Source: Kayfunavirus LM33P1. Taken from it: DNA of 38,979 nucleotides. The stretch lies in the sequence record OZ035813.1. One strand, given 5' to 3'. Below the pieces are notes generated by a model. The model worked only from the letters and a program-made list of their open reading frames with translations. It made no database searches and had not been told where the DNA came from. Made by a program: the position numbers and the translations under genes. Of this stretch, positions 13,478 to 16,273 are shown in pieces. Position 1 is the stretch's first letter, and every line of letters begins with the position of its first letter.

Positions 13478-13968
13478 TGAGCAAGAAGTTTAAACTGTTA
13501 GTAGATGCGCATGGCTGGCCTAGTGGGACTATAGTTACCAAGTGTGAGAATGACCCCGTACCAGATTCAAGAATGACCCTAGTTGAGTGCCAGATTCCAG
13601 GCGCATACAAACATGGGTCTAACGGCTGCAATACTCAGCCTGAGGGTATGTGGGGAGCATGGGTCCTTAATTGGAAACTTGAGGAAATCAAGCCGGAAGA
13701 GAAACTCACTGGTGTCCAAACCACTCAAGTCCTGCCAGCTTCGAGCGTACCGCCTGTGACTTTGAAGCGTGAAGTCCTGACCATCGACAAGATTGGTGTA
13801 GGCCAGACGTTCATCGTCCATGGAAAGCCTGAAGAAGTTTACGTGAAGATTAGCAACTCACACGTCTTCAACCATAAGCATCTCCAGATGCACACCACGG
13901 ACGCACAACGCTTCACCCAGCACCTGAATCTGGTTGTCGTAGAATTGGTGGTGTACAATGGTAAGTAA
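13477..13968 (+). CDS. hypothetical protein inserted between endonuclease I and lysozyme
   Basis: 163-aa ORF with AAGGAG SD, start overlapping the gp3 stop; no counterpart at this position in T7 as I recall it. Confidence 0.6.
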   Translation: MSKKFKLLVDAHGWPSGTIVTKCENDPVPDSRMTLVECQIPGAYKHGSNGCNTQPEGMWGAWVLNWKLEEIKPEEKLTGVQTTQVLPASSVPPVTLKREVLTIDKIGVGQTFIVHGKPEEVYVKISNSHVFNHKHLQMHTTDAQRFTQHLNLVVVELVVYNGK

Positions 13969-14416
13969 GGTACAGTTCAATCCACGGTCCCGGACCGACG
14001 CTATCTTCGTACACTGTTCGGCTACCAAGCCAGAGATGGACATCGGGGTAGAGACCATCCGTATGTGGCACAAGCAGCAAGGCTGGCTGGACGTAGGCTA
14101 CCACTTTATCATCAAGCGCGATGGCACTGTGGAAGAGGGACGCCCGGTCAATGTCGTAGGGTCACACGTTAAGGACTGGAACTCACGGTCTGTAGGCGTC
14201 TGCCTTGTAGGTGGAATTGACGCTAAGGGCAAGTTTGAAGCTAACTTCACTCCGGCCCAGATGAACTCCCTGCGCAACAAGCTGGCTGACCTGAAGGACT
14301 TGTATCCTCAGGCAGAAATCAAAGCACATCATGACGTAGCACCAAAGGCGTGTCCAAGTTTCGACTTGCAACGCTGGCTGTCTACCAATGAACTGGTCAC
14401 TTCCGACCGAGGCTAA
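13958..14416 (+). CDS. lysozyme, N-acetylmuramoyl-L-alanine amidase (gp3.5)
   Basis: 152 aa; TDAIFVHCSATKP, GWLDVGYHFIIKRDGTVEEGR, HDVAPKACPSFDL, ELVTSDRG nearly identical to T7 gp3.5. Confidence 0.9.
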   Translation: MVSKVQFNPRSRTDAIFVHCSATKPEMDIGVETIRMWHKQQGWLDVGYHFIIKRDGTVEEGRPVNVVGSHVKDWNSRSVGVCLVGGIDAKGKFEANFTPAQMNSLRNKLADLKDLYPQAEIKAHHDVAPKACPSFDLQRWLSTNELVTSDRG

Positions 14417-14434
14417 ACTATCACCGTAGGGATG
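14412..14434 (+). promoter_or_regulatory. phage RNAP promoter (variant)
   Basis: GCTAAACTATCACCGTAGGGATG; +1 at 14429. Confidence 0.6.
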
Positions 14435-14479
14435 AGACCACGAGTCTTGTCCCTTTGTTCGCATTTGAGATTAAGAAAT

Positions 14480-14558
14480 GTCTCCATAGCTCAAACGGTA
14501 GAGCGGCGGGTCGTGATGGCCTATTGCGATTAGGGTTCGAATCCCCGTGGAGACGCCA
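14480..14558 (+). tRNA. tRNA-like element with encoded CCA; anticodon arm irregular, identity unresolved
   Basis: 7-bp acceptor stem GTCTCCA/TGGAGAC, D-arm TAGCTCAAACGGTAGAGC, T-arm GGGTTCGAATCCC with canonical TTCGAAT loop, discriminator G then CCA; the segment between D and T arms (about 26 nt) does not fold into a clean 5-bp anticodon stem by eye. Confidence 0.4.
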
Positions 14559-14569
14559 CTAAGGAGTGA

Positions 14570-16273
<1,704 letters not shown>

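What the first reader, a model, noticed from the sequence alone, without database searches (positions are those of the whole stretch)
14480..14558. tRNA-like element with encoded CCA in a T7-like phage, between lysozyme and primase-helicase genes
The segment has a perfect 7-bp acceptor stem, a canonical D-arm (TAGCTCAAACGGTAGAGC), a T-arm with a TTCGAAT loop and a terminal GCCA. I could not fold the central 26 nt into a standard anticodon stem-loop; candidate loops TCGTGAT or TGGCCTA both give poor stems. It is either an unusual or degenerate tRNA or a tRNA-like structure with another role (processing signal, RNase P substrate, relic of recombination with a host tRNA gene). T7 itself has no tRNA here.
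Basis: seen in the sequence. Interest (0 to 1): 0.65.

Follow-up and report, generated by a model that had tools for sequence, protein, structure and literature searches.

The report
Optional tRNA-shaped cassette before phage primase gene
This T7-like coliphage carries a real, transcribed tRNA-shaped RNA just upstream of its primase-helicase gene, but its middle arm cannot present a normal anticodon, so it probably serves as a handle for host tRNA-processing enzymes and not as a decoder of codons.

Summary
Window 14480-14558 (+) of Escherichia phage LM33_P1 (Kayfunavirus) is called a tRNA by ARAGORN and scores 36.7 bits with Rfam RF00005 (cut-off 29). Its acceptor, D and T arms and GCCA end are canonical. 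The central arm is not. Across eight sequence variants, the only register paired in every variant is a 5-bp stem (29-33/39-43) with a 5-nt loop. Loop positions 34 and 36 vary freely, and three programs assign Thr, His, Ser or "stop". It is not a host tRNA scar: 5,426 E. coli genomes give no match.

It is an optional 88-nt cassette, 51 nt downstream of a phage-polymerase promoter and 3 nt upstream of the gene-4 Shine-Dalgarno. 34 phage records carry it, and one paper already calls it a "pseudo-tRNA". Its perfect identity in divergent phages comes from a ~0.5-kb recombination tract, so that identity is not evidence of selection. The evidence for constraint is that substitutions preserve base pairs.

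An unannotated second tRNA-shaped cassette with no anticodon arm sits at the same site in 145 phage records, almost all Klebsiella phages (K11/KP32 group).

Best reading: a non-decoding tRNA mimic that recruits RNase P. Whether it acts in cis on the gene-4 message or in trans is unresolved.

The parts
13958..14416 (+). Upstream gene: lysozyme / N-acetylmuramoyl-L-alanine amidase (T7 gene 3.5 equivalent)
   Evidence: ORF 13958-14416. Annotated as amidase or lysin in the LM33_P1 records.
14417..14432 (+). Phage RNA-polymerase promoter core (ACTATCACCGTAGGGA). Inferred transcription start at G14429.
   Evidence: The consensus ACTATCAC(Y)(R)TAGG(R)(A/C) occurs 8 times, all on the + strand, against 0.28 expected by chance. 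The start site is inferred by analogy with T7-type promoters. The same promoter and leader are conserved in relatives with and without the element.
14429..14453 (+). 5' leader hairpin GGGAUGAGACCACGAGUCUUGUCCC, homologous to the T7 phi3.8 leader
   Evidence: Predicted as a 10-bp hairpin. T7 has GGGAGACCACAGCGGTTTCCC-TTTGTTCGCATT at the same place. In T7 the RNase III site R3.8 lies just downstream of the phi3.8 start (PMC6938266).
14476..14563 (+). The 88-nt optional cassette (AAAT + tRNA-like element + CTAAG), bounded by short TAAG direct repeats. The boundary is ambiguous by about 4 nt.
   Evidence: The empty allele is ...GATTAAG|GAGTGACCAATG in ZG49 and about a dozen IMG/VR relatives. The filled allele is ...GATTAAG|AAAT[79 nt]CTAAG|GAGTGACC.
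14480..14558 (+). tRNA-shaped RNA gene (79 nt including encoded CCA)
   Evidence: ARAGORN. Rfam RF00005 36.7 bits. Family model R1 108.7 bits. 34 phage records carry it.
14480..14486 (+). Acceptor stem 5' strand (pairs with 14548-14554). U at -1 (14479).
   Evidence: 100% paired in 8 variants, with one double compensatory change (U2-A to C2-G in pO91). N-1 = T.
14489..14504 (+). D arm GCUC-AAACGGUA-GAGC
   Evidence: The stem is invariant. Only D-loop positions 16 and 17 vary, in pO91. G18, G19, A14 and A21 are present.
14506..14527 (+). Non-canonical central arm: pairs 27-28/47-48 plus 29-33/39-43, a 3-nt bulge (44-46) and a 5-nt loop GUGAU (34-38 = 14513-14517)
   Evidence: Register 29-33/39-43 is 100% paired. 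Pair 32.40 occurs as U.G, U-A and C-G. Rival registers reach 72.5%, 37.5% and 83.8%. The same arm is the MFE fold of pO91, PDP21P1, SH5 and Kc166A. Loop positions 34 and 36 vary.
14531..14547 (+). T arm UAGGG-UUCGAAU-CCCCG
   Evidence: Canonical T-loop. G55-C65 becomes A-U and A53.C67 becomes A-U in Kc166A.
14548..14558 (+). Acceptor stem 3' strand, discriminator G and encoded CCA
   Evidence: The same 11-nt end, TGGAGACGCCA, occurs in a phage tRNA-Arg(UCU) (L378).
14561..14566 (+). Shine-Dalgarno AAGGAG of gene 4, beginning 3 nt after the CCA
   Evidence: Direct reading.
14573..16273 (+). Downstream gene: primase-helicase (T7 gene 4 equivalent)
   Evidence: ORF. Annotation.

Best explanation
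The segment is a genuine, transcribed and structurally constrained tRNA-shaped RNA. It is carried as an optional 88-nt cassette in the 5' untranslated region of the primase-helicase gene. Its acceptor, D and T arms form a canonical tRNA 'elbow' with U at -1 and an encoded GCCA end. Its middle arm is a closed 5(+2)-bp stem with a 5-nt loop and has no conserved anticodon, so it most likely does not decode.

Proposed mechanism:
1. Phage RNA polymerase transcribes the element, both from the promoter 51 nt upstream and as part of read-through polycistronic RNA. The position is shown; transcription itself is inferred.
2. Host RNase P recognises the acceptor/T stack and elbow and cuts between U14479 and G14480 (inferred).
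3. That cut removes the single-stranded AU-rich leader. The gene-4 message then begins with a compact tRNA fold, or, if RNase E also cuts after the CCA, a free ~79-nt tRNA-like RNA is released. Either way the stability and expression of the replication-gene message is re-tuned (inferred).

The part I hold with most confidence (about 0.7) is 'functional, non-decoding tRNA mimic that acts through its elbow half'. The cis-processing role for the gene-4 mRNA is my preferred but unproven version of that.
For: It is tRNA-like:
- ARAGORN and Rfam both call it, above threshold.
- All the tertiary-interaction nucleotides are present.

Structure is under selection:
- pO91 has a double compensatory change in the acceptor stem and otherwise changes only D-loop positions 16 and 17 and loop positions 34 and 36.
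- Kc166A changes G55-C65 to A-U, A53.C67 to A-U, G29.U43 to A-U and U32.G40 to U-A, loses both partners of pair 7/69, and disrupts no Watson-Crick pair.
- All six single-copy variants change only the central arm, either in the loop or in a way that keeps the pair.
- G.U pairs mean only the + strand RNA can fold this way.

It does not look like a decoder:
- The canonical anticodon stem is 37.5% paired and ARAGORN's Thr register 72.5%. Only the 5-nt-loop register is 100% paired, and four variants fold that way independently.
- Identity calls disagree: Thr, 'Stop' and Ser from ARAGORN, and tRNA-Pseudo(GTG), tRNA-OTHER and tRNA-Thr in GenBank.
- The would-be anticodon positions 34 and 36 differ among otherwise identical copies.

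Position argues for a role in the transcript:
- It lies 51 nt after a phage promoter, 3 nt before the gene-4 SD, with no terminator or + strand sigma-70 promoter nearby.

There is a parallel case:
- 145 phage records, almost all Klebsiella phages (K11/KP32 group), carry a different tRNA-shaped cassette with an acceptor stem, a D-like hairpin and a canonical T arm but no anticodon arm and no CCA. It sits at the same place, between the homologous promoter leader and the next SD, and is also polymorphic.

The mechanism is plausible:
- RNase P measures the acceptor/T stack from the elbow and ignores the anticodon arm (PMC4919913).
- It already has phage and mRNA substrates (PMC11143913).
- In T7 an endonuclease site at this exact leader (R3.8) is linked to lower downstream transcript levels (PMC6938266).
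Against: - No expression, cleavage or charging data exist for any copy.
- The covariation set is small: 8 distinct family-1 sequences, only 2 of them really diverged. Family 2 shows only one-sided changes.
- The element's perfect identity across divergent phages is explained by a ~0.5-kb recombination tract, so it cannot be counted as purifying selection.
- A pure RNase P site would not need a structured central arm or an encoded CCA, yet the LM33 type keeps both and its central stem varies only in pair-preserving ways. That hints at a function for the whole molecule, which fits a trans role better.
- The T7-like leader hairpin (the R3.8 equivalent) is still present, so the element adds to existing processing and does not replace it.
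- Family 2 is not recognised by ARAGORN or by the Rfam tRNA model. Its homology to family 1 rests on a 13.8-bit hit plus position.
- Closely related phages do well without the cassette.
Confidence: 0.45

Rival explanations
1. Trans-acting tRNA mimic. The cassette exists to produce, from a strong phage promoter, large amounts of a free ~79-nt CCA-ended tRNA-shaped RNA. This RNA would bind or distract a host factor that recognises tRNA bodies, for example a tRNA-targeting defence nuclease or 3'-end-modifying toxin, or a tRNA-processing or modifying enzyme. Loop positions 34 and 36 might tune which factor is engaged.
For: - It is optional, horizontally exchanged and placed among middle genes, as many T7-family accessory and counter-defence genes are.
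- The whole cloverleaf is maintained in the LM33 type, including the central stem and the encoded CCA.
- Among near-identical copies the unpaired changes fall only on positions 34 and 36, while U35 and A37 stay fixed.
- tRNAs are a documented battleground between phage and host: PARIS cuts tRNA-Lys and T5 supplies a resistant copy (PMC11464382), and the literature search returned papers on retron, Schlafen and OLD systems that act on tRNAs.
- The same hot spot carries a small CCA-enzyme-like nucleotidyltransferase in 195 T7-like phage records.
Against: - Known phage countermeasures are functional replacement tRNAs with a fixed anticodon, not decoys.
- The family-2 cassette lacks both the anticodon arm and the CCA, so a shared function cannot depend on those parts.
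- Release of a free RNA needs a 3' cut that would fall at or in the gene-4 ribosome-binding region.
- No association with any defence system was tested.
Confidence: 0.25
2. A bona fide decoding tRNA with an unusual anticodon arm that opens on the ribosome to a 7- or 9-nt loop. It would read ACG (Thr, CGU), CAY (His, GUG) or UCA (Ser, UGA), and in pO91 and PDP21P1 it would act as an ochre suppressor (UUA).
For: - It scores above the Rfam tRNA threshold and ends in CCA.
- Its acceptor end is identical to that of a phage tRNA-Arg(UCU).
- The variable positions coincide with canonical positions 34 and 36.
- The 7-mer UCGUGAU differs from the E. coli tRNA-His loop by only U33C (E. coli sequence from my own knowledge).
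Against: - No register gives a conserved 5-bp stem plus a 7-nt loop with U33.
- C33-G39 is invariant and 32.40 covaries as a pair, which closes the loop to 5 nt.
- The implied amino-acid identity would switch between near-identical phages.
- Discriminator G73, with no G-1, no long variable arm and no G3.U70, fits none of the anticodon-independent synthetases (established identity rules, from my own knowledge).
- The phage uses the candidate codons unremarkably: ACG 9.9, UCA 14.6 and CAC+CAT 17.4 per 1000.
- The family-2 cassette cannot decode at all.
Confidence: 0.1
3. A non-functional relic. A captured phage tRNA gene is decaying from the anticodon arm outward and persists by hitch-hiking in a recombination tract at an insertion hot spot.
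For: - It is patchy: about 34 of 254 records that match the surrounding 1.2 kb, and 1 of 80 IMG/VR T7-like loci.
- The identity across hosts is due to a ~0.5-kb mosaic tract.
- The Kc166A copy is degraded: a 6-bp acceptor stem, no CCA, and below Rfam E<=0.1.
- Other unrelated cassettes use the same site.
Against: - Every stem substitution seen keeps pairing, including two double changes and the co-deletion of a pair.
- T7-like genomes are compact, and the cassette is flanked by direct repeats that would favour deletion.
- A second tRNA-shaped cassette is present in about half of the sampled K11-type loci at the same site, which is hard to explain by chance decay.
Confidence: 0.15
4. A scar of recombination with a host tRNA gene (attP-like fragment).
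For: Some marine T7-like phages integrate at tRNA genes (from my own knowledge).
Against: - No match in 5,426 E. coli genomes.
- The element is a complete cloverleaf, so it cannot be a 3' half.
- Pattern scans of the genome and metagenome collections returned only ordinary tRNAs without the odd central arm.
- The genome has the standard lytic T7 gene order.
Confidence: 0.02

Closest known systems
Phage-encoded tRNA genes (T4, T5 and many large phages), including nuclease-resistant variants such as T5 tRNA-Lys against PARIS
   Same: It is encoded by a lytic phage and has a canonical acceptor, D and T body. Its acceptor end is identical to a phage tRNA-Arg(UCU). Its anticodon stem-loop deviates from the host type, as in the resistant variants (PMC11464382).
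   Different: Those tRNAs keep a normal 5-bp stem, a 7-nt loop and a fixed anticodon, and they decode. This element has a closed 5-nt loop, no conserved anticodon and inconsistent identity calls.
Non-tRNA substrates of bacterial RNase P: phage P1/P7 C4 antisense RNA precursor, phage M3 RNA, T4 gene 32 mRNA, polycistronic operon mRNAs
   Same: A tRNA-like acceptor/T module is embedded in a longer phage or operon transcript and would be cut by a host tRNA enzyme (PMC11143913).
   Different: Those substrates are mostly partial mimics. This one is a complete cloverleaf with D arm and CCA, and cleavage here has not been shown.
mascRNA / MALAT1 and MEN-beta tRNA-like processing modules, and the mitochondrial 'tRNA punctuation' principle
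   Same: A tRNA-shaped element with a non-functional anticodon region is used as a cleavage signal inside a longer transcript (PMC4919913).
   Different: Those are eukaryotic, sit at the 3' end of a long non-coding RNA and rely on RNase Z plus CCA addition. This element is bacterial-viral, lies in a 5' UTR directly before a ribosome-binding site and has its CCA encoded.
T7 RNase III site R3.8 in the phi3.8 leader
   Same: It occupies the same genomic and transcript position, with homologous leader sequence. It is an endonuclease site linked to the level of the downstream replication-gene message (PMC6938266).
   Different: It uses a different enzyme and a different structure. The R3.8-type hairpin is still present in LM33_P1, so the tRNA-like element is an addition to it.
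'Pseudo-tRNA' annotations in Kayfunavirus genomes (Kc166A, DY1, ST31, LM33_P1)
   Same: This is the same element. It is noted in one sentence of PMC8402661 and annotated as tRNA-OTHER, tRNA-Thr or tRNA-Pseudo(GTG) in some GenBank records.
   Different: No structure, distribution, cassette nature or function was analysed there. Many records, including both LM33_P1 records, leave it unannotated.

Membership tests
Canonical elongator tRNA (Rfam RF00005) | Covariance-model score at or above the gathering threshold | tested here: met
   36.7 bits against 29 for LM33_P1 and 35.9 bits for pO91. The Kc166A copy does not reach E<=0.1. The model skips the central 21 nt.
Canonical elongator tRNA (Rfam RF00005) | 7-bp acceptor stem, discriminator and CCA; D arm with G18 G19; T arm with T-Psi-C-R-A loop | tested here: met
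   Direct reading and pair counts.
Canonical elongator tRNA (Rfam RF00005) | 5-bp anticodon stem 27-31/39-43 closing a 7-nt loop with U33 and purine 37 | tested here: not met
   37.5% of cells pair in that register, and position 33 is C. The supported register has a 5-nt loop.
Canonical elongator tRNA (Rfam RF00005) | Anticodon conserved among orthologous copies | tested here: not met
   In every register the triplet changes among near-identical copies. ARAGORN gives Thr, Stop and Ser.
Canonical elongator tRNA (Rfam RF00005) | Aminoacylation and use on the ribosome | not testable with these tools
   Needs acid-urea Northern blots or charged-tRNA sequencing.
RNase P substrate (tRNA-like) | 12-bp acceptor/T coaxial stack capped by a T-loop/D-loop elbow | tested here: met
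   7 + 5 bp with a canonical T-loop and the G18 G19 D-loop. The recognition rule comes from PMC4919913.
RNase P substrate (tRNA-like) | Favourable cleavage-site context (U at -1, 3' RCCA) | tested here: met
   U14479 and GCCA at 14555-14558. These are not conserved in Kc166A or in family 2.
RNase P substrate (tRNA-like) | Actual cleavage by RNase P in vitro or in vivo | not testable with these tools
   Needs an M1 RNA/C5 assay or 5'-end mapping in an rnpA(ts) host.
Nuclease-resistant replacement phage tRNA (T5 tRNA-Lys / tRNA-Tyr type) | Carries the same functional anticodon as the targeted host tRNA | tested here: not met
   No stable anticodon and a closed 5-nt loop.
Nuclease-resistant replacement phage tRNA (T5 tRNA-Lys / tRNA-Tyr type) | Rescues infection in the presence of a tRNA-targeting defence system | not testable with these tools
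   Needs plating assays.
Host-tRNA-derived attachment site or recombination scar | Near-identity to part of a host tRNA gene | tested here: not met
   No blastn match in 5,426 E. coli genomes at E<=1. Other host genera were not searched comprehensively.
Host-tRNA-derived attachment site or recombination scar | Adjacent integrase | not tested
   The ORF map and the annotation of relatives show the standard lytic T7 gene order. No protein-family scan of all ORFs was run.

The most novel reading that the evidence does not exclude
T7-like phages of at least two genera carry interchangeable 'tRNA-elbow' cassettes in the 5' UTR of their replication genes. The Kayfunavirus version is a full cloverleaf with a closed, anticodon-less middle arm. 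The K11/KP32-group (Przondovirus) version has no middle arm at all. Together they would form a previously unrecognised class of phage RNA elements that co-opt the host's tRNA-recognition machinery. They might let RNase P sculpt and stabilise phage messages, or they might supply an abundant tRNA-body decoy against host factors that attack or modify tRNAs.
Probability: 0.3. Interest if true: 0.75.

Novelty: new variant of a known kind. Interest (0 to 1): 0.55.

Why it matters
T7-family phages are the textbook example of a minimal lytic programme, and they are workhorses of biotechnology and phage therapy; LM33_P1 itself is a therapy candidate. They are generally described as having no tRNAs.

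Suppose that some of them carry a selectively maintained tRNA-shaped RNA that cannot decode, and that a stripped-down version without an anticodon arm sits at the same spot in well over a hundred Klebsiella phage genomes. That points to a use of tRNA shape as such. The use could be a host-enzyme-dependent processing or stabilising signal for replication-gene mRNAs, or a mimic aimed at tRNA-binding host factors.

Either way it would add a layer of gene-expression control or host interaction to a very well studied phage family. It would also give annotators a reason to stop labelling the element as a random tRNA-Thr, tRNA-OTHER or nothing. The natural filled and empty alleles make the question directly testable with isogenic phages.

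Tried and rejected
- **Host origin.** blastn of the 79 nt against all complete E. coli genomes found nothing.
- **Cellular or metagenomic relatives.** The D-arm pattern TAGCTCAANNGGTAGAGCGGC in metagenome and genome contigs returned only ordinary tRNAs (Thr, Asn and others) with normal anticodon arms.
- **More copies in IMG/VR.** Two DNA patterns and 80 primase-helicase loci yielded only ST31.
- **Purifying selection from flank divergence.** I first read '79/79 identical where flanks are 85-89%' as selection. A sliding-window comparison showed a ~0.5-kb near-identical recombination tract, so I withdrew that argument.
- **Single-sequence MFE fold.** The 10-bp hairpin 30-39/43-52 is rejected because, in every one of its pairs that varies, the variation breaks the pair.
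- **ARAGORN's Thr(CGU) register.** It is broken in SH5 and Kc166A and contains a constant G.G mismatch.
- **Link between the tRNA-like element and the adjacent nucleotidyltransferase gene in Kc166A.** Six metagenomic relatives have the enzyme gene but an empty tRNA site, and three nucleotidyltransferase-bearing phages of other genera have no tRNA-like gene. The two are therefore independent cassettes.
- **Other Rfam families at a permissive threshold.** Only noise.
- **Codon-usage rationale.** No striking demand for ACG, UCA or CAY.
- **Protein-coding explanation.** No ORF of 50 aa or more covers the element. Five of the six reading frames have stop codons within the element itself (14480-14558), and the remaining one (+ frame 2) contains no methionine.
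- **L380.** An aberrant tRNA with a GCAA-capped stub lies in an unrelated high-GC temperate phage, so it was not pursued.
Full report
**Identity of the window.** The 38,979-base window is the complete genome of Escherichia phage LM33_P1 (LT594300 / NC_031937), a Kayfunavirus of the Autographiviridae. The 1.2 kb around the finding matches those records at 100%. The finding lies between the lysozyme/amidase gene (13958-14416) and the primase-helicase gene (14573-16273).

**Checking the observation.**
- a perfect 7-bp acceptor stem (14480-14486 with 14548-14554);
- U8 A9, then a D arm GCUC-AAACGGUA-GAGC with A14, G18, G19 and A21;
- a T arm with the loop UUCGAAU;
- a G discriminator followed by CCA.

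ARAGORN calls exactly 14480-14558 as the only tRNA in the genome, labelled tRNA-Thr(CGU). Rfam's tRNA model scores it at 36.7 bits against a gathering score of 29, but jumps over the central 21 nt. At a permissive threshold no other Rfam family competes. T7 has no such element at the equivalent position.

**The central arm.** I collected the eight distinct sequence variants available: LM33_P1, pO91, Kc166A, SH5, TM1, Seyj3-1, 101120B1-2 and PDP21P1. I then counted pairs for each candidate register.

| Register | Cells paired |
|---|---|
| Canonical 27-31/39-43 | 37.5% |
| ARAGORN's Thr register 26-30/38-42 (constant G.G mismatch) | 72.5% |
| Single-sequence MFE hairpin 30-39/43-52 (every varying pair breaks) | 83.8% |
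| 29-33/39-43 with a 5-nt loop | 100% |

In the last register, pair 32.40 occurs as U.G, U-A (SH5, Kc166A) and C-G (Seyj3-1), and pair 29.43 as G.U and A-U. Independent MFE folds of pO91, PDP21P1, SH5 and Kc166A all give this stem, extended by pairs 27-28/47-48 across a 2-3-nt bulge. The molecule is therefore a cloverleaf whose middle arm is longer and closed by a 5-nt loop (GUGAU, with variants AUGAU, GUUAU, UUUAU and GUGAA).

No register gives a conserved anticodon. ARAGORN calls Thr, 'Stop' (UUA) and Ser(UGA) for three copies. GenBank records say tRNA-Thr, tRNA-OTHER, tRNA-Pseudo(GTG) or nothing.

**Is the structure under selection?** My first argument was wrong. I had noted that the element is 79/79 identical in phages whose lysozyme and primase genes are only 85-89% identical. 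A sliding-window comparison shows that in IME278, CHRF_30001 and VIPECLMC06 the near-identity covers a ~0.5-kb tract, about 14398-14878. This tract includes the leader and the first 300 nt of gene 4, so it is a recombination mosaic.

The valid evidence is the pattern of substitutions:
- All six single-nucleotide variants lie in the central arm, either at loop positions 34 and 36 or in pair-preserving form (C28U, U32C, G40A).
- pO91 adds a double compensatory change in the acceptor stem (U2-A to C2-G) and changes at the normally variable D-loop positions 16 and 17.
- Kc166A, at 83% identity, changes G55-C65 to A-U, A53.C67 to A-U and U52.G68 to A.C, deletes both partners of pair 7/69, and breaks no Watson-Crick pair.

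The G.U pairs work only in the + strand transcript. The sample is small, so this is good but not overwhelming evidence.

**Context and mobility.** A phage-polymerase promoter consensus occurs eight times on the + strand, against 0.28 expected, and one copy is at 14417-14432. By analogy with T7, transcription would start at G14429. A 25-nt leader hairpin and a 26-nt AU-rich spacer follow, then the element, then after 2 further nt the AAGGAG of gene 4. No terminator or + strand sigma-70 promoter is nearby. The leader is homologous to the T7 phi3.8 leader (…CCCTTTGTTCGCATT…).

Relatives lacking the element have a clean empty site, …GATTAAG|GAGTGACCAATG. The filled allele is …GATTAAG|AAAT-element-CTAAG|GAGTGACC. 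The element is therefore an 88-nt cassette bounded by TAAG repeats.

The same junction holds other cassettes in other phages:
- a 59-aa ORF (phrog_6794) with a duplicated TAAGGAGTGACC (L022, L024);
- an HNH endonuclease (SH5; T7's gene 3.8 is also an HNH gene here);
- a 179-aa nucleotidyltransferase (Kc166A).

The tRNA-like cassette occurs in 34 phage records, from phages of Escherichia, Enterobacter, Salmonella, Klebsiella, Citrobacter and Kosakonia. About 254 records match the surrounding 1.2 kb. In IMG/VR it occurs in 1 of 80 T7-like loci.

**Origin.**
- There is no match in 5,426 E. coli genomes.
- Pattern scans of the metagenome and genome collections gave only ordinary tRNAs.
- Among viral contigs, tRNAs with the same acceptor stem are mostly tRNA-Arg and tRNA-Asn. 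One tRNA-Arg(UCU), in L378, shares the first 15 nt and the last 11 nt (TGGAGACGCCA) exactly.

Descent from a phage tRNA gene is therefore plausible but not shown.

**The nucleotidyltransferase lead.** In Kc166A, the one copy without an encoded CCA, the next gene is a small nucleotidyltransferase. It matches phrog_1614 at E=1.5e-28. It also has a sub-threshold Pfam PolyA_pol head match over a GGxxRD…DxD motif, at 15.2 bits against a cut-off of 23. This looked like a functional pair, but it is not one:
- Six metagenomic relatives carry the enzyme gene with an empty tRNA site.
- The enzyme occurs in 195 T7-like phage records at the same map position.
- The three nucleotidyltransferase-bearing phages of other genera that I scanned have no tRNA-like gene.

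**A second family at the same site.** A covariance model of the element (R1) found the known copies strongly. It also gave a recurrent weak full-length hit (13.8 bits) just upstream of gene 4 in about a dozen Przondovirus-like loci.

Reading the sequence shows a ~70-nt element:
- acceptor stem (U)GGUCAG/CUGACC(A);
- a D-like hairpin GGUGC-ACUUGGCGUA-GCGCU;
- a 9-nt linker where the anticodon arm should be;
- a canonical T arm UCGGG-UUCGAUU-CCCGG;
- no conserved CCA.

It lies after the amidase gene, the K11-type promoter and the homologous leader hairpin, and before the next Shine-Dalgarno. In the K11 reference the interval is unannotated. It is present in 145 phage records, almost all of them Klebsiella phages. 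It is also in phage 140f, which has a different promoter; there the element directly precedes TAAGGAGTGAAC and gene 4, as in LM33_P1. It too is polymorphic: about 20 of 37 K11-promoter loci carry it, with a clean empty allele.

All proposed pairs hold in seven variants, with three one-sided pair-preserving changes and no double compensation. ARAGORN and the Rfam tRNA model do not detect it. Calling it tRNA-like therefore rests on direct reading, and its homology to family 1 is uncertain. A generic T-arm-plus-acceptor scan of all held T7-like loci found only these two families in intergenic DNA.

**How it most likely works.** Two genera of T7-like phages have optional tRNA-shaped inserts at the same point of the same transcript, and one of the inserts has no anticodon arm. 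The common denominator is the acceptor/T/D 'elbow' half. That is what RNase P measures, and it ignores the anticodon arm (PMC4919913). RNase P is already known to cut phage RNAs and mRNAs (PMC11143913). In T7, an RNase III site in this same leader (R3.8) is associated with a sustained drop in downstream transcript abundance (PMC6938266).

My preferred model is as follows. RNase P cuts at U14479|G14480. This removes the single-stranded leader, so the gene-4 message starts with a compact structure. If RNase E also cuts just after the CCA, as it does in E. coli tRNA operons (PMC2190699 abstract), a free tRNA-like RNA is released instead. Either outcome re-tunes expression of the replication genes. 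Only the positions and the structure are shown here. Cleavage and its consequences are inferred.

The main rival is a trans-acting mimic or decoy. It is favoured by the maintained central stem, the encoded CCA and the variable loop positions of the LM33 type, and by the accessory, exchanged nature of the cassette. A conventional decoding role is unlikely, a neutral relic less likely than function, and a host-tRNA scar is effectively excluded.

**Novelty.** The element has been noticed before. One sentence in PMC8402661 mentions a 'pseudo-tRNA' at this position in Kc166A, DY1, ST31 and LM33_P1, and some GenBank records annotate it. I found no analysis of its structure, mobility or function. A full-text search combining 'Przondovirus' with 'tRNA-like' returned no papers, so I found no mention of the Przondovirus element. 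tRNA-like processing modules and phage tRNA variants are known kinds, so I class this as a new variant of a known kind. It is of moderate interest, and higher if the two cassettes prove to be a common device of T7-like phages.

Noticed in passing
L343 (Klebsiella phage K11 NC_011043) about 905-975; L044:2300-2372; L344 (phage 140f) about 604-675: An unannotated ~70-nt tRNA-shaped element with an acceptor stem, a D-like hairpin and a canonical T arm, but no anticodon arm and no CCA. It lies between the phi3.8-equivalent promoter leader and the next SD in 145 phage records, almost all Klebsiella phages. It is itself a presence/absence cassette, found in about 20 of 37 sampled loci.
   Followed up: partly
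window 14469-14575 and the equivalent site in L003, L007-L024, L326, L001: The few bases before the gene-4 Shine-Dalgarno are an insertion hot spot. Alternative cassettes are flanked by duplicated TAAGGAG(TGACC). They are the tRNA-like element, a 59-aa ORF (phrog_6794; L022, L024), an HNH endonuclease (SH5; T7 gene 3.8 sits here too) and a nucleotidyltransferase (Kc166A).
   Followed up: partly
L001:1294-1833 (Kosakonia phage Kc166A); L340-L342: A small (140-180 aa) nucleotidyltransferase (phrog_1614). It has a GGxxRD…DxD motif and a sub-threshold PolyA_pol head-domain match. It sits between the amidase and primase genes in 195 T7-like phage records, mostly Pseudomonas, Dickeya and Pectobacterium phages; the three I scanned have no tRNA-like gene. 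Its substrate and purpose are unknown.
   Followed up: partly
window about 14398-14878 compared with L331, L332, L333: A ~0.5-kb tract (leader, tRNA-like element and the first ~300 nt of gene 4) is nearly identical between LM33_P1 and Enterobacter and Salmonella phages whose neighbouring sequence is only 82-89% identical. This is a recent recombination mosaic across phages of different host genera.
   Followed up: yes
window 14416-14417 compared with L004:925-1137 and L003:1128-1328: LM33_P1 lacks the ~70-aa hypothetical ORF (phrog_1950 in one record) that most relatives carry between the amidase gene and the promoter.
   Followed up: no
window 14548-14571: The acceptor 3' strand (UGGAGAC) resembles the gene-4 ribosome-binding region (AAGGAGUGAC). 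In pO91 the acceptor 5' strand is GCCUCC, which looks like an anti-Shine-Dalgarno. An alternative pairing that masks the SD, or a role of this similarity in how the cassette was captured, is conceivable.
   Followed up: no
L380:3606-3673: A high-GC temperate phage contig (serine recombinase, terminase, probable tRNA cluster) has a tRNA with normal acceptor, D and T arms. Its anticodon arm is replaced by a short CCC-GCAA-GGG hairpin, and ARAGORN calls it 'tRNA-???'. It is unrelated to the T7-like context.
   Followed up: partly
L082:810-828: An isolated canonical T-arm-like sequence (AAGGG-TTCGAAT-CCCTT) lies about 1.7 kb upstream of gene 4 in another T7-like contig. I saw no obvious acceptor stem.
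   Followed up: no
L378, position given (1779-1851): A phage tRNA-Arg(UCU) shares its first 15 nt and last 11 nt (including G73-CCA) exactly with the LM33_P1 element. It may be a relative of the ancestral tRNA.
   Followed up: partly
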